From Gemmatimonadales bacterium (lineage in GTDB: Bacteria > Gemmatimonadota > Gemmatimonadetes > Gemmatimonadales > GWC2-71-9): a DNA stretch of 44,967 nucleotides. Below the pieces are notes generated by a model that saw nothing but the letters and a program-made list of their open reading frames with translations, made no database searches and was not told where the DNA came from. This document shows positions 1,712-27,109 of this stretch, piece after piece (position 1 is the stretch's first letter; the number at the start of each line of letters is the position of its first letter). Location of the stretch: positions 1 through 44,967 of the forward strand of contig JAYUAL010000383.1 in NCBI GenBank assembly GCA_043741355.1, given 5' to 3'. The translations under genes and the position numbers were made by a program.

Positions 1712-4700
1712 TGCGGCGGCGCCTGATCCGCTGGGTCTTCGTCGTGCTGGTCGGCGCCGTGGCCGCGGTGCTCGGCGTGGCCACCGCGCTGCTCTATTCC
1801 CCGCCCGGGCGCGAGCTGCTGGTCCGTCTGGTCTCGGGGCGCGCCGGCGGCATGGTCCGGGGCTCCCTCGCGATTGGTGCGGTGAGCGGGCGCTGGCTGA
1901 CCGGGTTCAACCTCGAGCGGGTGGTCATCAAGGACAGCACCGGGGCGCTGCTCGCCGATGTCCCCCGGGTAGAAATCAGCTATCGCCTGGGCGACATCCT
2001 GGGCGGAAGGATCCTGATCGGCTCGCTCCGGCTTCACCGCCCGGTGATCCAGATCATCAAGCACCGCAGCGGCCGGGTCAACTACGAGGAAATCTTCCGG
2101 CTTGGTGAAACCAGTTCCACCGGCGGCCCTCCACAGCTGGTGGAGATTCACGACCTGGTCATCGACAGCGGTACCGTCACAATCCGGCTGCCCTGGAATC
2201 CCGACGGGCGGCTCCGTACCAGGGCGCGGGTGGACTCGGCCCTGGCCTACGAGCGGACCAAGCCGGGACGGCGCATCGAGCCGGGTCCCGAAGGGCTCGA
2301 GATGGTGCGGACGATCGAGGACCTCGATTCGTCGATGCCGCTGGTCCGGTTATCGAGTCCGGACAACTCCCCGACGCAGGTCGACATCGAGCGCCTCCGG
2401 GCCCGGATCAGCGATCCGGCCATCCAGATTTCCGATCTCAAGGCGGAGCTGAGAACCAAGAACGACAGCCTCGTCTTCACGGTGGAGCACGCCGAGCTCC
2501 CGGCCACCTCGCTCTCCGGGGCGGGACGCCTCGACTGGCCCCGGGATACCATCCTCTACCACTTCAGTCTCCAGGCCAGCCGGCTCGCGCTCCGGGACAT
2601 GCGCTGGATTTCGCCGGGTTTCCCCGATTTTACCGGGACGGCCCATATCGAAGCGAGCTCGGTGAGCGGCTCCCGCACCGAGTACAGTATCCGGAACCTC
2701 GCGGTGGGCGACTCGACCTCCCGGGTGACCGGCCGCCTGGTCGCTCTCACCGATGTGTACCAGGGGCTGGGCTTCCGGCGCCTCGGCCTCGAGCTCCAGA
2801 ATCTGAATCTCGATGTGGTGCGACCCTATCTGGATTCGATCCCGTTCTACGGCACGATCACCGGCAGGCTCGGCGCCGACGGCTTCTTCGGGGCGCTGAC
2901 TGTCTCCCTCGACTGGCAGTTCCGCGACGCGAAGATTCCCGGCGCCGAGAGCCGGCTGGGGCTGGACGGCCCGGTAACATTGGGCGGGCGCGACGGAATG
3001 GTCTTCCGCGGCGCCCGGCTGTCCCACACCGACGTGGATCTGCGGACGGTACGACGGGTGGCGCCGGGGGTCATCCTCGAGGGCCGGCTCGGGATGACCG
3101 GCTCCCTCACCGATCCGTGGAAGAACGTGGTGTTCGACGGCTCCGCCGAGCACCGGGACGACAGCCGGCCTCCGAGCCGGATCGTCGGGAGGGTTCGCCT
3201 CGATACTCGCGGCCCGGTGCTGGGGCTCGAGACGGACATCGTGCTCGACTCGCTGGCCTTCGAAGGCATTCGCCGCACCTTCCCGACGCTCACGGCGCGG
3301 GGCTCGCTGGGCGGCCGGGTCAAACTGTCGGGAACGCTCGACCGCCTCGTGGTAGACGCCGACGTGGGCGGGGCGATCGGAACCATTCGTGCCGTCGGTA
3401 CCACGACGCTCGCGCCTCCCCACTGGGGCGCCGACTCACTGCGGATCACATTCGGCAACCTGGACCTGCAGGCGCTGACCGGAACCGGACCGGAAACCCG
3501 GCTGCAGGGCGCCCTGGAGGCGTCCGGCACCGTCGACTCGGGCAAACCGCCGGCCGGCCGGCTGGCGCTGACGCTGGGGCAGGGACGAATCCGGGAGTTC
3601 ACCCTGGACTCGGCGATGGCGCTGGTGACCGCCGCCGACAGCGTGATCCGGCTCGATACCCTGCGGGCCTACTTTGCCGAGGGCCAGCTCGGCGGCGGAG
3701 GCACCATCGGCTGGGCTCCTCCCAAGACCGGCGTCATGGCCTTCCACGTCGAGGCGAAAGATCTGGCCCCGTTCGATTCGGTGGCGCTTCGGCTCACCGG
3801 GTTCACCCGGGACAGCCTGACCGGGGTCCGGATGAGCGGAAGCGCGCGGGGCGACGTAACCCTCGAGGGCGCCCTGGGGGCCCTCAAGATGGACGCCGCG
3901 GTGCTGGTCGATTCGTTGCACTGGCTCACCTACGGCGCGCGGAATCTTCAGGGACGGTTGCTCTGGTTGCGCGGAGACTCGGCCCTCACCGCCAGCGTCT
4001 CGGCCGACACGTTGAGAGACGGCGGTTTGGAGTTTACCGCCGTCCAGTTGGGGGGCCACGCACATCCCGATTCGCTGCACTGGGTCGCCTCGGCGGAGAG
4101 CCGCTACGGGATGCGGCTGGCGGGTGCCGGCCTGTTCCAGCGTCGGCCCGCGTCTATCTTGTTCCGCACCGACACCCTGAGCCTCGATCTGCTGGGCCGG
4201 CAATGGTGGCTGTCCCATCCGGTTGACGCAATCATCCGCGATTCGTTGGTGACGCTGGACACCGTCCGGCTGGTGACCCGTGACGGTTCCGGGAGCGTCG
4301 AGCTGGCGGGGGATATTTCGCGCGGCGCCGCCAGCAATCTGTCGATCACCGCCCTCGGGATCGAGCTGCGGGAGATTTACGGGCTGACCCAGCGCGATAC
4401 GACCGACATCCGTGGCTCGGTGCTGGTCGACGCCCGGGTTGCCGGCACCGCCAAGGCCCCCGAGCTCCGGGGGACCGGCAGTCTCACGGGCGGGGTGTTC
4501 GGCGATTTCCAGGCGCCCCTGGTTCGCAACGCGTTCGACTATCGGGGACGCGTGTTGCGCTCCAACCTCACCTTTTGGCGCGCCGGCGTGCCGGTAGTGG
4601 AGGTGGACGCTTCCCTGCCGCTCGACCTGGCGTTCGGCCCTGTGACCAAGCGGCAACTGCCCGGCCCGATCAGTATCGTGGCCAAGGGTGACAGTGTCGA

Positions 4701-6120
4701 CCTGGCGCTGGTGGAGGCATTCACTCCCAATTTGCGCAAGGTGACCGGCTTCCTGAGCACGGACCTGCGGGTGGAAGGGAGCTGGGACTCACCCCGACTG
4801 GCGGGACACATGCAGGTGATCGACGGGGGCGCAGACGTTCCGGCGCTTGGCGTTCGGTACGGGCCCATTACCGGCGGGCTCCGGTTTTCGGGCGACTCGA
4901 TCGTCGCCGAGAACCTCAGGATTGGTGGCAAGACGGGTGAGCTCGACGTGACCGGCGCGGTCCGGCTCGAACGTCTCACCACCCCGGTTCTGGGGCTCGC
5001 CCTCTCGGCCCGGGAGTTCGAGCTGATCGACGTTCGGGAGTACCTCAAAATCACCACCTGGGGCGACGTCAACCTGAGCGGTTCGCTGCTGCATCCCGTC
5101 CTTACCGGGGCGGGGCGGCTTACCAACAGCGTCATCTTCTTCGCGGACCTGGTGTCCAAGGACATCGTAAACCTCGAGGACCCGCTCAACGCCGACCTGG
5201 TGGATACGCTGGCACTCCGCCAGCAGGGACTCGGCGCCAATTTCCAGAGCCGGTTCCTCGACTCGCTCAGCATTCGCGACCTCGACTTCATCGCCGACGA
5301 GGGAGTCTGGCTCCGATCGACCGAGGCCAACTTCCAGCTCGAGGGCCGGTTGCGGGTGAACAAGACTCGCAAGCTCTACCAGATCGAGGGGAGCCTCAAT
5401 ACTCCGCGCGGCAGCTACACGCTCGCGATCGGCCCCATCATTCGGAGCTTCACGGTGGAGCGGGGGGCGGTGCGGTACTTCGGAGACCTGAACGCCGAGC
5501 TCGATGTCCAGGCGCGCCACGTGCTCAACTCCAATTCGGCCGGAAGTCAGAGCGAGATCCCGATCATTGCCCACATCACCGGGACGCTCAACGTGCCCAA
5601 GCTTTCGCTCTCGACACCTCCGGACCGGCCTCCCATGTCGCAGCAGGAGCTGATCGCGCTCCTGGTATTCGGAACCACGGATACCCGCGCCGCCGTTCAG
5701 TCCGTCGGGGGATTGAACGCGCCGGCGTACGCGTATGCCACCGCGCTCAATGCATTTGCCAGCGAGCTCCAGCGTTCGTTACTGTCGAGAAACAACGCCC
5801 CGGACATGTTCCAGATCCGGCCGGGGTATTCCTACGGGCTCCAGGGCTCGGTGAGCTCGGCCACTGAGATCGCGGTCGGGAATGCGATTGGAAAGAAGTT
5901 GTTCGTCACCGGCAACGTGGGCTTCTGCCTCAACAACAACCGGAACGCGTTCAGCGCCAAGAATATCGGCGCCAGCGTCGAATACCGGTTTGTCCGGGAT
6001 CTGCGGCTGGTGGTCTCGGCCGAGCCGGTGCAAACCTGTTTCGGTCTCGGAGCAGAATCGCTCGCGGCCACTCGTCGCTACCAGTTCGGTACCGAGCTTC
6101 GCTGGGACCGGGACTACTAG
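1711..6120 (+). CDS. tamB: Translocation/assembly module protein TamB-like (about 1470 aa, N-terminal signal anchor)
   Basis: ATG at 1711 (MRRRLIRWVFVVLVGAVAAVLGV...) lies inside track ORF 1465..6120 and overlaps the upstream stop by 1 nt. The product is a very long beta-rich protein placed directly after an Omp85 gene, the usual TamA-TamB arrangement. The DUF490 C-terminal assignment is from memory of the family, not from a search. Confidence 0.7.
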   Translation: MRRRLIRWVFVVLVGAVAAVLGVATALLYSPPGRELLVRLVSGRAGGMVRGSLAIGAVSGRWLTGFNLERVVIKDSTGALLADVPRVEISYRLGDILGGRILIGSLRLHRPVIQIIKHRSGRVNYEEIFRLGETSSTGGPPQLVEIHDLVIDSGTVTIRLPWNPDGRLRTRARVDSALAYERTKPGRRIEPGPEGLEMVRTIEDLDSSMPLVRLSSPDNSPTQVDIERLRARISDPAIQISDLKAELRTKNDSLVFTVEHAELPATSLSGAGRLDWPRDTILYHFSLQASRLALRDMRWISPGFPDFTGTAHIEASSVSGSRTEYSIRNLAVGDSTSRVTGRLVALTDVYQGLGFRRLGLELQNLNLDVVRPYLDSIPFYGTITGRLGADGFFGALTVSLDWQFRDAKIPGAESRLGLDGPVTLGGRDGMVFRGARLSHTDVDLRTVRRVAPGVILEGRLGMTGSLTDPWKNVVFDGSAEHRDDSRPPSRIVGRVRLDTRGPVLGLETDIVLDSLAFEGIRRTFPTLTARGSLGGRVKLSGTLDRLVVDADVGGAIGTIRAVGTTTLAPPHWGADSLRITFGNLDLQALTGTGPETRLQGALEASGTVDSGKPPAGRLALTLGQGRIREFTLDSAMALVTAADSVIRLDTLRAYFAEGQLGGGGTIGWAPPKTGVMAFHVEAKDLAPFDSVALRLTGFTRDSLTGVRMSGSARGDVTLEGALGALKMDAAVLVDSLHWLTYGARNLQGRLLWLRGDSALTASVSADTLRDGGLEFTAVQLGGHAHPDSLHWVASAESRYGMRLAGAGLFQRRPASILFRTDTLSLDLLGRQWWLSHPVDAIIRDSLVTLDTVRLVTRDGSGSVELAGDISRGAASNLSITALGIELREIYGLTQRDTTDIRGSVLVDARVAGTAKAPELRGTGSLTGGVFGDFQAPLVRNAFDYRGRVLRSNLTFWRAGVPVVEVDASLPLDLAFGPVTKRQLPGPISIVAKGDSVDLALVEAFTPNLRKVTGFLSTDLRVEGSWDSPRLAGHMQVIDGGADVPALGVRYGPITGGLRFSGDSIVAENLRIGGKTGELDVTGAVRLERLTTPVLGLALSAREFELIDVREYLKITTWGDVNLSGSLLHPVLTGAGRLTNSVIFFADLVSKDIVNLEDPLNADLVDTLALRQQGLGANFQSRFLDSLSIRDLDFIADEGVWLRSTEANFQLEGRLRVNKTRKLYQIEGSLNTPRGSYTLAIGPIIRSFTVERGAVRYFGDLNAELDVQARHVLNSNSAGSQSEIPIIAHITGTLNVPKLSLSTPPDRPPMSQQELIALLVFGTTDTRAAVQSVGGLNAPAYAYATALNAFASELQRSLLSRNNAPDMFQIRPGYSYGLQGSVSSATEIAVGNAIGKKLFVTGNVGFCLNNNRNAFSAKNIGASVEYRFVRDLRLVVSAEPVQTCFGLGAESLAATRRYQFGTELRWDRDY

Positions 6121-21407: not shown

Positions 21408-24996
<3,589 letters not shown>

Positions 24997-25000
<4 letters not shown>

Positions 25001-25182
25001 AGCGCGCTCGCCTTCCAGCGCACCGGGCGCATCCCGGGGGTGATCTCATGCCTGGCGTGGCAGGAGACGCACTTGTCGATGACCTTGGTGGTCCCCGCGG
25101 GAACGAACTTCCGGTTGGTGGAGCCACAGCGGGTGCATTGCCACTCGGCGGTGACGTGCGGGCTGCTGGACACGGCGATCAT
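24997..25182 (-). CDS. Small zinc-ribbon protein (61 aa) encoded between ruvA and ruvB
   Basis: CTRC...(18 aa)...CVSCH. High GC3. ATG forms an ATGA overlap with the ruvA stop, and its TGA abuts or overlaps the ruvB reading frame. Confidence 0.55.
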
Positions 25183-25781
25183 CCCCGTCCTCCTCGTGGG
25201 GTAGTGAGGTGCTGCAGGGCCCGCCGGACCAGCACGGCCACGTCGTCGGTCCGGCCTTCGGCCAGCACCGCGCGGACCGCCTCGTCGGCGGTGGGCTGCG
25301 GGTAGCCGAGGGCCAGGAGCGCCTTCGCGGCTTCATCGGCCGGCCGACCCCGGCCCGGCGCGGGAGAAATGGCCAGGTCGCTGAACCGATCCGACAATTC
25401 CACGATCAGTTTCTCGGCGCGCTTTTTTCCGATGCCGTTCACGGTGCTGAGCGCCGCCACGTCCTTGCCCTGAATGCTGCGCACCGCGCGCTCCGGCCCC
25501 AGGGTGGAAAGAATGGCCAGGGCCAGCCTGGGCCCGAGGCCGGTCGCGCCGAGCAGACGCTGGAAGATCGCCCGCTCGACCACCGAGTCGAAGCCGTACA
25601 GCGTCCAGGCGTCTTCCCGGATCACCAGCTCGGTGTAGAGCTGGCAGCGCGCGCCCAGGGCGGGCAGGCGCTCGAACACGCCCAGCGGAACCGACACCTC
25701 GTAGCCGACACCGCCGTCGGTCTGAATCAGGACCGCCTCGCCCTGGCGATCGGCCAGGACGCCCGCCACGGTGGCGATCAT
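25179..25781 (-). CDS. ruvA: Holliday junction DNA helicase subunit RuvA
   Basis: MIATVAGVLA...GGVGYEV.VP..., with HhH region FQRLLGATGLGPRLALAILS and VNGIGKKRAEKLIVEL. Confidence 0.9.
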   Translation of the reverse strand: MIATVAGVLADRQGEAVLIQTDGGVGYEVSVPLGVFERLPALGARCQLYTELVIREDAWTLYGFDSVVERAIFQRLLGATGLGPRLALAILSTLGPERAVRSIQGKDVAALSTVNGIGKKRAEKLIVELSDRFSDLAISPAPGRGRPADEAAKALLALGYPQPTADEAVRAVLAEGRTDDVAVLVRRALQHLTTPRGGRG

Positions 25782-26275
25782 CGTCCGGCTCCCAGGCGGG
25801 CCGCGGTGAAGAAATGGGTCAGCGCCACCGCCACCGCGTCGGCGGCATCGGCCGGAGCGGGCGGCGCTTCGAGTTTCAGCAGCTTCGCGACCATGTATCC
25901 CACCTGAGGCTTGAGCGCCGCGCCACGTCCCACCACGGTCTTCTTCACCAGCGCCGGCGAGTACTCGGTGACCAGTATGCCCGCCTCAGCTCCCGCCAGG
26001 AGAATAACTCCCCGCGCGTGGCCCAGGACCACGGTGGTGCGCACGTTGGTGGCGTAGAAGATGCCCTCGACCGCCAGCACATCGGGGCGGTGCCGCTCGA
26101 GCAGCTCGGTGAGCCCCTCATGGATGATTTGAAGCCGCCGGGAGAGCGAGTCTCGAGGACCCGTCCGAATGATGCCGCATTCGACCAGCCGAAGTACCCG
26201 GTCGGCGTCGCGGGGTCGCTCCACCACGCCGTAGCCGACCGTCGCGGTGCCCGGGTCGATGCCCAGCACCTTCAT
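25778..26275 (-). CDS. ruvC: Crossover junction endodeoxyribonuclease RuvC
   Basis: MKVLGIDPGTATVGYGVV...AVEGIFY...ADAADAVAVAL. Confidence 0.9.
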   Translation of the reverse strand: MKVLGIDPGTATVGYGVVERPRDADRVLRLVECGIIRTGPRDSLSRRLQIIHEGLTELLERHRPDVLAVEGIFYATNVRTTVVLGHARGVILLAGAEAGILVTEYSPALVKKTVVGRGAALKPQVGYMVAKLLKLEAPPAPADAADAVAVALTHFFTAARLGAGR

Positions 26276-26288
26276 CGGCGGATCGCGA

Positions 26289-27038
26289 TCAGGCCTCTGC
26301 CTCGGCGAGCGTCGCGGCGTCGATGTCGAAGTTCGAAAACACCTTCGAAACGTCCTCCAGATCCTCCAGGACTTCCATCAGCTTGAGCAATTTCGACGCG
26401 TCGACGCCCTCGACCTTGACGGTGTTCCTGGGCACCATGGCGAGCTCGGCGGACTCGACGATGTATTTCTTGGCCTTGAGCGCGTCCTGCACCGCGTGGA
26501 ACGTGCCGGGGAGTGTGCTCACGACGTATTGCTCGCCGTCCCTGAGGAAGTCTTCCGCCCCCGCCTCCAGCGCGTCTTCGAGCGCCTGATCTTCCGAATA
26601 CCGCTCGGCGTCGAGGTAAATCTGACCCTTCCGCTCGAACATCCACGCCACCGAGTTGGTCGCGCCGAGATTGCCGTTATTGCGGCTGAAGGCGTGTCGC
26701 ACCTCGGCTACGGTGCGGTTGGGGTTGTCAGTGGTGGCCTCGATCATGATGGCCGCACCGCCGGGTCCATACCCTTCGTAGGCCACCTCTTCGTAGGTCT
26801 CGCCCTCGAGCTCGCCGGTGCCCTTCTTGATGGCGCGCTCGATGTTGTCGTTAGGGCAATTGACCGCCTTGGCGGCGTCAATGGCGGTCCGGAGGCGGGC
26901 GTTGCCGCCGGGATCGCCGCCGCCGGCCTTGGCGGCGACGATGACATCCCGGACGCGCTTGGCCCAAACCGCCGAACGCTTATTGTCGGTGGCGGCCTTT
27001 TTGTGCTTGATCTGCTTCCATTTACTGTGGCCGGCCAT
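26289..27038 (-). CDS. YebC/PmpR-family DNA-binding transcriptional regulator
   Basis: ATG at 27038. MAGHSKWKQIKHKKAATDNKRS... is the invariant N-terminus of the family. Confidence 0.9.
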   Translation of the reverse strand: MAGHSKWKQIKHKKAATDNKRSAVWAKRVRDVIVAAKAGGGDPGGNARLRTAIDAAKAVNCPNDNIERAIKKGTGELEGETYEEVAYEGYGPGGAAIMIEATTDNPNRTVAEVRHAFSRNNGNLGATNSVAWMFERKGQIYLDAERYSEDQALEDALEAGAEDFLRDGEQYVVSTLPGTFHAVQDALKAKKYIVESAELAMVPRNTVKVEGVDASKLLKLMEVLEDLEDVSKVFSNFDIDAATLAEAEA

Positions 27039-27109
27039 CGTCCTGCTCCCGTTGTCGTTCAGGGGGTGAATAATGGCAGCGGGAGAGGGTTCCGGCAATT
27101 CGGTGCGCC

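What the first reader, a model, noticed from the sequence alone, without database searches (positions are those of the whole stretch)
24997..25182. Uncharacterised zinc-ribbon mini-protein inserted between ruvA and ruvB
Seen directly: a 61-codon ORF ([61 protein letters not shown]) has genome-typical GC3. Its ATG overlaps the ruvA stop (ATGA), and its TGA abuts the ruvB frame (CTGA). It carries CxxC…CxxCH, a rubredoxin/zinc-ribbon-like knuckle pair. Established knowledge: ruvA and ruvB are normally adjacent and co-translated. I do not know of a described accessory subunit encoded between them. Inference: it may be a RuvAB-associated small protein, or a coupling ORF that delivers ribosomes to a ruvB lacking its own canonical start.
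Basis: partly seen in the sequence, partly recalled or inferred. Interest (0 to 1): 0.6.

Follow-up and report, generated by a model that had tools for sequence, protein, structure and literature searches.

The report
Zinc-ribbon microprotein gene inside ruvAB operon
A real, strongly conserved gene for a 61-residue zinc-binding protein sits between the two genes of the RuvAB DNA-repair motor in one family of soil and sediment bacteria, and it may be an unrecognised helper of that motor, though this is untested.

Summary
A 61-codon ORF lies at 24997-25182 (minus strand). Its ATG overlaps the ruvA stop (ATGA), and its TGA overlaps a CTG in the ruvB frame (CTGA).

It is a genuine protein-coding gene:
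- dN/dS is 0.22 in its frame, against 1.5 and 2.2 in the other two frames.
- GC3 is 0.92.
- A GGAGG ribosome-binding site is conserved upstream.
- Four Cys, two Trp, a His and a TNR motif are invariant.
- The AlphaFold model is a confident five-strand zinc ribbon (pLDDT 86.6).

The gene is confined to one family of Gemmatimonadales: 132 of 136 genomes sampled, against 0 of 164 in two sister families and 0 of 175 elsewhere in the phylum. It lay between ruvA and ruvB in every locus that could be judged. No Pfam, NCBIfam, PHROG or PADLOC family claims it.

In this genome ruvB has no ATG, GTG or TTG start. The CTG inside CTGA aligns with the GTG or ATG start of relatives, so ruvB is probably translated by reinitiation after the small ORF.

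Function is inferred only. Most likely it is a basic DNA- or RuvB-binding accessory of RuvAB; an unrelated operon passenger is the main rival.

The scan has reported this gene before on other Gemmatimonadota genomes.

The parts
24997..25182 (-). Gene for a 61-aa basic C4 zinc-ribbon microprotein (pI 9.8), stop codon included
   Evidence: ORF and translation. dN/dS 0.22. GC3 0.919 and pI. Invariant T11 A12 E13 W14 C16 C19 T22 N23 R24 D36 C38 C41 H45 R55 in 46 sequences. AF2 pLDDT 86.6 with five strands.
25188..25195 (-). Shine-Dalgarno-like GAGGAGGA, 6 nt before the ORF's ATG, inside the ruvA 3' end
   Evidence: Read directly from the minus-strand sequence. A GGAGG-like core stands at the same distance in most of the 20 same-genus loci printed.
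25179..25781 (-). ruvA (200 aa); its TGA overlaps the ORF's ATG (ATGA)
   Evidence: Pfam RuvA_N, HHH_5 and RuvA_C.
23969..25000 (-). ruvB read from the CTG at 25000-24998 (343 aa), stop codon included
   Evidence: Pfam RuvB_N, AAA_lid_4 and RuvB_C. NCBIfam NF000868 at E 5.8e-147, with profile position 13 at residue 31 of the read-through. N-terminal alignment with relatives.
24998..25000 (-). Probable non-canonical CTG start of ruvB, overlapping the ORF's TGA (CTGA)
   Evidence: Among the 20 distinct loci with the same 62-nt spacing, the homologous codon is GTG in 7 and CTG in 13. In relatives with unambiguous starts the RuvB N-terminus begins one residue before the aligned S/T-R.
25046..25048 (-). 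In-frame TGA that closes the ruvB frame upstream, so no canonical start is available in this genome
25778..26275 (-). ruvC; overlaps the ruvA start by 4 nt and begins the chain of coupled genes ruvC-ruvA-ORF-ruvB
   Evidence: Coordinates. The name rests on the typical RuvC sequence and position; no family scan was run on it.

Best explanation
**Shown**
- This is a real protein-coding gene for a 61-residue, basic (pI 9.8), four-cysteine zinc-ribbon microprotein.
- It is specific to one family of Gemmatimonadales.
- It sits precisely at the old ruvA/ruvB junction. Sister genomes without it have ruvA and ruvB overlapping as ATGA; here the same ATGA joins ruvA to the small gene.

**Inferred from sequence**
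- The gene has its own strong ribosome-binding site and is translationally coupled to ruvA upstream.
- In this genome ruvB has no ATG, GTG or TTG. It most probably starts at the CTG inside CTGA, by termination-reinitiation of ribosomes that finish the small ORF.
- The production of RuvC, RuvA, the microprotein and RuvB is therefore chained.

**Inferred function (not shown)**
- The microprotein works with the RuvAB Holliday-junction branch-migration motor as a small accessory.
- It would use its conserved basic surface (T22-N23-R24-K25 and R52-P53-V54-R55-W56) to bind DNA or the RuvB ATPase.

The confidence figure below refers to this functional claim. That the gene is real I put above 0.95.
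For: **Gene reality**
- dN/dS is 0.22 overall and 0.20 for codons 2-45, against 1.5 and 2.2 in the control frames. This pools all pairs of 18 same-genus sequences; 2 of the 20 were dropped for length differences.
- Third-position variability is 0.28, against 0.12 and 0.10 at positions 1 and 2.
- GC3 is 0.919.
- 19 of 20 same-genus loci have a 4-nt start/stop overlap with ruvA (18 ATGA, 1 GTGA), and all 20 end in TGA.
- The SD-like site is conserved.
- 84 protein clusters of 54-80 aa exist in public data.
- 317 species genomes encode a relative.
- None of 80 tblastn matches has an internal stop.

**Fold**
- The AF2 model has pLDDT 86.6.
- The best structural neighbours are small zinc ribbons: LysW at Z 5.2, rmsd 1.6 over 44 residues, and Tim15 at Foldseek probability 0.96, E 0.32.

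**Synteny**
- ruvA-ORF-ruvB order in 20 of 20 same-genus loci.
- Among 80 further loci (L021-L100; several are the same species genomes as the 20 above), ruvB is downstream in 80 of 80 and ruvA upstream in 78 of 80. The other 2 are cut by a contig end.
- One copy per genome.
- Median identity to the window: microprotein 67%, RuvA 59%, RuvB 80%. The microprotein figure covers the aligned core only.

**Distribution**
- Own family f1: 132 of 136. Sister families f2 and f3: 0 of 137 and 0 of 27.
- Phylum sample: f1 122 of 125; families f2-f12 0 of 175.

**ruvB start**.
Against: - There is no experimental or structural evidence of contact with RuvA, RuvB or DNA.
Adjacency is therefore weak evidence of shared function.
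- In 3 of 80 loci unrelated genes are inserted next to it. L091 has an FkbM-like methyltransferase ORF, read by eye, between ruvA and the ORF, and L095 has a gap of similar size whose content I did not read. L074 has GT2-like plus FkbM-like ORFs between the ORF and ruvB.
- Two genomes of the same family (G077, G107) and the four sister-family genomes looked at (G025, G026, G027, G029) lack the gene. Their RuvB has the same N-terminal motif, so no compensating change is visible.
- A profile search of 1.84 billion representatives found no credible natural fusion to RuvA, RuvB or any repair domain. The four long hits are garbled, frameshifted RuvA or RuvB reads.
- The structural matches are generic zinc ribbons.
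Confidence: 0.42

Rival explanations
1. It is a real zinc-ribbon microprotein, but its function has nothing to do with RuvAB. It could be, for example, a general nucleic-acid- or ribosome-binding or regulatory small protein. It landed at the ruvA/ruvB junction and stays there because the overlap-coupled operon leaves no neutral way to remove it.
For:
- Unrelated genes have inserted at the same junctions in 3 of 80 loci.
- RuvAB works without it in the rest of the phylum sampled and in G077 and G107.
- The only significant sequence hit among solved structures is a mitoribosomal zinc-knuckle protein, mS66, at E 2.1e-5.
- A profile comparison gives 70% probability to a DUF4379 treble-clef repeat protein.
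- JGI automatic names compare it with RpoP, Elf1 and L40E.
Against: - It lay between ruvA and ruvB in every locus that could be judged, across a whole family. It is single copy and never found elsewhere in these genomes.
- It is conserved at least as well as RuvA.
- It remains even where it is not needed for coupling.
Confidence: 0.4
2. It is only a coupling or spacer ORF. What matters is that ribosomes translate across it and deliver themselves to ruvB; the peptide itself has no function.
For: In this genome ruvB lacks any canonical start, and its best candidate start (CTG) overlaps the ORF's stop.
Against: - dN/dS is about 0.2 and 14 columns are invariant, including four Cys.
- The fold prediction is confident.
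- The peptide is equally conserved where ruvB sits 100-360 nt downstream with its own ATG, as in L013, L014, L018, L046, L050 and L065.
Confidence: 0.03
3. It is not a separate gene. It is an N-terminal zinc-ribbon domain of RuvB (or a C-terminal tail of RuvA), split off by an assembly frameshift or joined in vivo by programmed frameshifting.
For: - The ruvB frame is open for 46 nt upstream of the ORF's stop here, and for more than 200 nt in some relatives.
- Four long catalogue proteins join the ribbon to RuvA- or RuvB-like sequence.
Against: - The same frame relation and the same TGA recur in 20 of 20 same-genus species assemblies.
- Independent contigs show no indels.
- In many relatives the ruvB frame is closed between the ORF and ruvB, or the two are 100-360 nt apart.
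- The four 'fusions' have garbled RuvA or RuvB sequence typical of error-rich assemblies.
Confidence: 0.02
4. It is a mini c-type cytochrome or other haem- or iron-binding redox protein, because of the CxxCH motif.
For: Weak Pfam matches to Cytochrom_c3_2 in 21 of 46 members (best E 3.2e-5) and to Paired_CXXCH_1 in 8 of 46. Weak rubredoxin-type matches.
Against: - The His after the second CxxC is not conserved. It is H in 58 of the 73 loci that could be mapped, and otherwise R, G, K and others.
- The N-terminus has no hydrophobic export signal. This is seen directly; no predictor was run.
- For the window protein no match reaches its curated cut-off.
Confidence: 0.01

Closest known systems
Canonical ruvC-ruvA-ruvB(-queA-tgt) operons and the RuvAB branch-migration complex
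   Same: The gene order yebC-ruvC-ruvA-...-ruvB-queA-tgt is the usual one. RuvA and RuvB have all their Pfam domains. Sister genomes have ruvA and ruvB overlapping as ATGA.
   Different: A third, conserved gene is wedged exactly into the ruvA/ruvB junction throughout one family. In this genome ruvB has lost its canonical start and appears to depend on that gene's translation. I found no description of such a gene. Searches: read as listings and abstracts only.
Small stand-alone C4 zinc-ribbon proteins (Pfam Zn_ribbon_8 / FmdB family TIGR02605; LysW; DNL-type Tim15)
   Same: Two CxxC knuckles on beta-hairpins and a size of about 60 aa. LysW is the best structural neighbour (Z 5.2, rmsd 1.6 over 44 residues). 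Tim15 has Foldseek probability 0.96. Zn_ribbon_8 is weakly matched by 20 of 46 members.
   Different: No family is matched at its curated cut-off: Zn_ribbon_8 scores 15.7 bits against 34.4, and TIGR02605 scores 13.7 against 31.3. The protein is basic with an RPVRW tail, whereas LysW, as I recall it, carries an acidic carrier tail. The family's own invariant motifs (TAEW-C, TNR, D-x-C, RW) are not those of these families.
DUF4379 (PF14311, probable treble-clef zinc finger) and kinetoplastid mitoribosomal protein mS66
   Same: A shared N-terminal motif of the type A-E/K-W-x-C-x-x-C-G followed by a basic strand. hhalign gives probability 70% against a DUF4379 repeat protein. The profile hits mS66 at E 2.1e-5.
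   Different: The window protein does not match PF14311 at E up to 1, and only 4 of 46 members match weakly. Those proteins are multi-repeat or much larger, and none is linked to ruv genes.
Phage 'mini-RuvA' (zinc ribbon fused to RuvA domain III, next to phage RuvB), as described in earlier notes of this scan
   Same: A small zinc ribbon encoded immediately upstream of, and overlapping, a ruvB gene.
   Different: No relative of this family was found in viral contigs: 0 confirmed of 41 pattern matches. The one candidate I found upstream of a phage ruvB (L125:2143-2514) shows no similarity (hhalign probability 0.6%). It also gave no RuvA_C match in Pfam. This is an analogy only.

Membership tests
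C4 zinc ribbon (fold class) | Two CxxC knuckles, conserved | tested here: met
   C16, C19, C38 and C41 are invariant in 46 sequences. All four are present in the 73 of 80 loci that could be mapped position by position. The other 7 were misregistered by alignment gaps and were not evaluated.
C4 zinc ribbon (fold class) | Knuckles carried on beta-hairpins of a small beta-sheet | tested here: met
   The AF2 model has pLDDT 86.6 and strands at 9-15, 22-28, 34-37, 44-48 and 57-60. The nearest solved folds are zinc ribbons.
C4 zinc ribbon (fold class) | Binds one Zn(II) | not testable with these tools
   Needs metal analysis of purified protein.
Zn_ribbon_8 / FmdB family (PF09723, TIGR02605) | Score at or above the curated cut-off | tested here: not met
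   15.7 bits against 34.4 for PF09723; 13.7 bits against 31.3 for TIGR02605.
DUF4379 (PF14311) | Match to the family profile | tested here: inconclusive
   The window protein has no hit at E up to 1. 4 of 46 members match, best E 0.002. hhalign gives 70% against a DUF4379 repeat protein.
c-type cytochrome | Conserved CxxCH haem-attachment motif | tested here: not met
   H42 is present in 58 of 73 mappable loci and is replaced by R, G, K and others in the rest.
c-type cytochrome | Export signal | not tested
   No signal-peptide predictor was run. By eye the N-terminus ([10 protein letters not shown]...) is not hydrophobic enough.
LysW amino-group carrier | Acidic C-terminal carrier tail and a lysine/arginine biosynthesis neighbourhood (features recalled, not from a call) | tested here: not met
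   The C-terminus is basic ([10 protein letters not shown]). The neighbours are ruvA and ruvB.
DNL-type zinc finger (Tim15/Hep1) | Structural and sequence match to the family | tested here: inconclusive
   Foldseek probability 0.96 but E 0.32. VIA-align Z 2.7. No Pfam zf-DNL hit was listed at E up to 1.
RuvAB(C) machinery (as an accessory subunit) | Encoded in the ruv operon | tested here: met
RuvAB(C) machinery (as an accessory subunit) | Physical or functional interaction with RuvA, RuvB or junction DNA | not testable with these tools
   No multimer prediction or experiment was available here.

The most novel reading that the evidence does not exclude
The microprotein is a third, lineage-specific subunit of the RuvAB Holliday-junction motor. 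In this reading it is a basic zinc ribbon that docks on the RuvB hexamer or on junction DNA and alters loading, processivity or regulation. It is made in a fixed ratio with RuvA and RuvB, because ruvB translation has become dependent on it (CTG start inside CTGA).
Probability: 0.33. Interest if true: 0.7.

Novelty: new variant of a known kind. Interest (0 to 1): 0.45.

Why it matters
- **A possible new RuvAB component.** RuvAB is a textbook two-component motor, and no accessory subunit encoded between its genes has been described in what I could search. A microprotein kept at that exact position across an entire bacterial family, conserved at least as well as RuvA, is a concrete candidate for a new component or regulator.
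- **It is cheap to test.** The protein is 61 aa and the RuvAB assays are well established.
- **A clean natural case of chained translational coupling.** An essential repair ATPase appears to have given up its canonical start codon.
- **An annotation lesson.** Gene callers that demand ATG, GTG or TTG will truncate ruvB by 30 conserved residues in these genomes.
- **If the protein proves unrelated to RuvAB.** The finding is then an ordinary lineage-specific zinc-ribbon microprotein.

Tried and rejected
**Family and literature searches that named nothing**
- Pfam, NCBIfam, PHROGs and PADLOC scans of the protein gave nothing at a curated cut-off; PADLOC gave 0 families.
- Foldseek against the PDB gave no match at E 0.001 or better.
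- VIA-align wide gave one match with Z of 5 or more (LysW); the rest were generic.
- The ESM Atlas returned only its own unnamed clusters, plus an archaeal DUF7836 cluster at 0.94 with 124 shared features. That is a lead only.

**Natural fusions**
- The representative search has no length filter. It returned four long hits (P0108, P0117, P0120, P0122) whose RuvA or RuvB parts are garbled, so I rejected them as frameshifted assemblies.
- The divergent singletons P0096, P0116 and P0124 carry no name or context.

**Origin of the gene**
- A RuvB tree of 76 rows was built from loci L001-L106 after dropping identical sequences and matches shorter than 320 aa.
- It needs at least 2 changes of the presence label, but its well-supported branches allow 1. 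One gain with later losses cannot be told from a later gain.

**Co-evolution with RuvB**
- The RuvB N-terminal motif is the same in genomes with and without the gene. No signal.

**Phage lead from earlier notes**
- No relative of the family was found in viral contigs.
- Among the 21 viral ruvB loci I scanned only plus-strand ORFs ending near the ruvB match. One had an upstream ORF resembling a ribbon plus a RuvA-tail-like segment.
- That ORF shows no similarity to this family and has no RuvA_C Pfam hit.
- The top tblastn hits in the 'phages' collection look like bacterial RuvB on unannotated faecal contigs and were not pursued.

**Expression**
- Only one RNA-library run held any of the stretch (5% of sampled words).
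- One 151-nt contig from it covers 24916-25066 with 7 differences.
- It comes from a relative and may be DNA carry-over, so I do not count it as evidence of transcription.
- Parts without cover in runs X4 and X20 mean nothing.

**Limits**
- Supplementary files of papers were not consulted.
- No paper was read beyond search listings and abstracts.

Full report
**1. Observation**

The window carries, on the minus strand, yebC-like (26289-27098), ruvC (25778-26275), ruvA (25179-25781), a 61-codon ORF (24997-25182), ruvB and then queA and tgt.

- Its ATG shares TG with the ruvA stop (ATGA). Its TGA shares TG with a CTG in the ruvB frame (CTGA).
- RuvA and RuvB carry all their Pfam domains.
- The ruvB frame is closed by a TGA at 25048-25046. 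After that it holds no ATG, GTG or TTG until GTG 24910, which encodes the V of the conserved EFVGQ block.
- The NCBIfam RuvB model already aligns from its position 13 at residue 31 of the read-through. The real start must therefore lie well upstream of GTG 24910.

**2. Is the ORF a gene?** Yes.

- *Composition.* GC3 is 0.919 in its frame, against 0.51 and 0.61 in the other two frames. The neighbouring genes have 0.81-0.88.
- *Initiation signal.* GAGGAGGA lies 6 nt before the ATG. A GGAGG-like core is kept at that distance in most of the 20 same-genus loci.
- *Conservation.*
  - 22 of 24 same-genus genomes have it at 63-93% identity with no stops.
  - All 20 fetched loci have the order ruvA-ORF-ruvB.
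  - 19 of 20 have the 4-nt start/stop overlap with ruvA, and all 20 end in TGA.
- *Selection.*
  - Pooled pairwise Nei-Gojobori dN/dS over 18 ungapped sequences is 0.22. L014 and L015 were dropped for length differences.
  - It is 0.20 for codons 2-45, which lie outside any possible ruvB overlap.
  - The same columns read in the other two frames give 1.5 and 2.2.
- *Assembly check.* Contigs from two further runs of the same study span 24861-25208 with substitutions only, and no indels were reported in any run laid.

**3. The protein**

- An alignment of 46 homologues has 14 invariant positions: T11 A12 E13 W14 C16 C19 T22 N23 R24 D36 C38 C41 H45 R55. RPVRW is nearly invariant.
- The protein is basic, with pI 9.8 and net charge about +6.
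- AlphaFold2 on that alignment gives pLDDT 86.6 and a five-strand sheet.
- Foldseek finds nothing at E 0.001 or better. The top rows are small zinc ribbons (Tim15, LysW, ribosomal zinc-ribbon proteins).
- VIA-align puts LysW first, at Z 5.2 and rmsd 1.6 over 44 residues.
- No Pfam, NCBIfam, PHROG or PADLOC model reaches its cut-off.
- The 'CxxCH' motif attracts weak cytochrome matches, but that His is not conserved (58 of 73 mappable loci). I reject a haem site.
- A profile search of solved structures hits the kinetoplastid mitoribosomal protein mS66 at E 2.1e-5.
- hhalign gives 70% probability to a DUF4379 treble-clef repeat protein. This is a shared A-E-W-x-C-x-x-C-G type knuckle and a lead to a distant relationship, no more.

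**4. Distribution**

- Public protein catalogues hold 84 clusters of 54-80 aa. They are named 'hypothetical protein' or carry automatic guesses.
- A scan of one genome per species found 317 genomes encoding a relative. The 80 best are all Gemmatimonadales or Gemmatimonadota metagenome-assembled genomes.
- With the family profile, the window's own GTDB family f1 has it in 132 of 136 sampled genomes, one copy each. The sister families f2 and f3 have it in 0 of 137 and 0 of 27.
- In a phylum-wide sample the figures are 122 of 125 for f1 and 0 of 175 for families f2-f12.
- Six f1 genomes had no hit.
  - In four of them (G003, G018, G275, G302) no ruvB was found either, so the locus is probably not assembled.
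  - Two (G077, G107) have ruvA next to ruvB without the ORF.
- In G077 and in the sister-family genome G026, ruvA and ruvB overlap as ATGA. The small gene therefore occupies exactly the ancestral junction.
- A RuvB tree cannot decide between one gain with losses and a later gain.

**5. Synteny beyond the genus**

- In 80 further loci (L021-L100; several are the same species genomes as the 20 same-genus loci), ruvB is downstream in all 80. ruvA is upstream in 78; the other two are cut by the contig end.
- Median identity to the window is 67% for the microprotein core, 59% for RuvA and 80% for RuvB.
- There are three exceptions to tight adjacency.
  - L091 has an FkbM-like methyltransferase ORF between ruvA and the ORF.
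  - L095 has a gap of similar size (about 0.8 kb) whose content I did not read.
  - L074 has GT2-like and FkbM-like ORFs between the ORF and ruvB.
  - The gene names are by eye; no family scan was run.

**6. The ruvB start**

- Relatives with an unambiguous ATG or GTG start give a RuvB N-terminus of the form M-(S/T)-R-(L/V)-E-(I/V)-T-T-P. Genomes without the small gene have the same N-terminus.
- In the window the aligned codon is the CTG at 25000-24998.
- Twenty distinct loci share the 62-nt spacing. That codon is GTG in 7 and CTG in 13.
  - Four of the 13 have an alternative GTG 18 nt upstream.
  - Of the other nine, the ruvB frame is closed just upstream in the window, L003 and L016, so no canonical start exists there.
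  - In the remaining six a longer, overlapping N-terminus cannot be excluded.
- I infer that ruvB here starts at CTG by termination-reinitiation after the small ORF.
- This agrees with another first-stage note on the same window (e1-3989941).
- It cannot be the gene's only purpose. The peptide is equally conserved where ruvB lies 100-360 nt away with its own ATG.

**7. Function**

What is shown: a conserved, basic zinc ribbon, made from the ruv operon.

What is inferred: it acts with RuvAB. I put about 0.4 on that, and about 0.4 on an unrelated passenger function.

Points against a Ruv link:
- No credible natural fusion was found among 1.84 billion representatives.
- No change in RuvB accompanies the gene.
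- The fold matches are generic.

Earlier notes of this scan describe phage RuvB genes paired with a zinc ribbon fused to RuvA domain III. I looked for a link and found none:
- No viral relative of this family was found.
- The one candidate upstream of a phage ruvB shows no similarity and no RuvA_C match.

**8. Literature**

- Four full-text searches were read as listings and abstracts only: ruvA + ruvB + 'zinc ribbon'; 'ruvAB operon' / 'small protein' / 'zinc finger'; 'between ruvA and ruvB'; and Gemmatimonadota + ruvB.
- They returned no description of a gene between ruvA and ruvB.
- The library lacks most subscription journals, and supplements were closed.

**9. Verdict**

- This is an undescribed protein family of a known fold, in a new variant of a well-known operon.
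- The same gene has already been reported by this scan on other Gemmatimonadota genomes (e1-2202378, e1-2351324, e1-3217493, e1-3248994). What I add here:
  - the gene is confined to one family of the phylum rather than found throughout it;
  - ruvA and ruvB overlap as ATGA in genomes that lack it;
  - the ruvB CTG start aligns with the canonical start codons of relatives.

Noticed in passing
window 24910-25048 (minus strand): ruvB has no ATG, GTG or TTG start. The CTG at 25000-24998 aligns with the GTG or ATG start of relatives. Standard gene callers would truncate RuvB by 30 conserved residues (start at GTG 24910). This is also the subject of the separate note e1-3989941.
   Followed up: yes
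L091:2200-2961; L095 (about 0.8 kb between ruvA and the ORF); L074:about 3200-4955: In 3 of 80 related loci extra DNA breaks the ruvA-ORF-ruvB adjacency. L091 has an FkbM-like methyltransferase ORF on the ruvA side. L074 has a GT2-like glycosyltransferase ORF plus an FkbM-like ORF on the ruvB side. The names are by eye; no family scan was run. The L095 insert was not read.
   Followed up: partly
proteins P0108, P0117, P0120, P0122: Public protein catalogues contain apparent RuvA-ribbon and ribbon-RuvB 'fusions' whose Ruv parts are garbled. They look like products of frameshift-rich assemblies and could mislead domain-architecture surveys.
   Followed up: partly
protein P0105 (540 aa) and PDB mS66 chains 7aor_at, 6hiv_DS, 7ane_at: The family profile picks up the A-E/K-W-x-C-x-x-C-G knuckle of DUF4379 treble-clef repeats and of the kinetoplastid mitoribosomal protein mS66. 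This hints at a wider, unnamed knuckle type.
   Followed up: partly
L125:2143-2514: In a 119-kb viral contig, a 123-aa ORF overlapping the start of a phage ruvB has an N-terminal Cys-rich ribbon-like segment and a C-terminal segment that looks RuvA-tail-like by eye. Pfam gave no RuvA_C match.
   Followed up: partly
window 25778-25781 and 25179-25182: ruvC/ruvA and ruvA/ORF are both joined by 4-nt overlaps. With CTGA at ORF/ruvB, four consecutive genes are chained by start/stop overlaps.
   Followed up: partly
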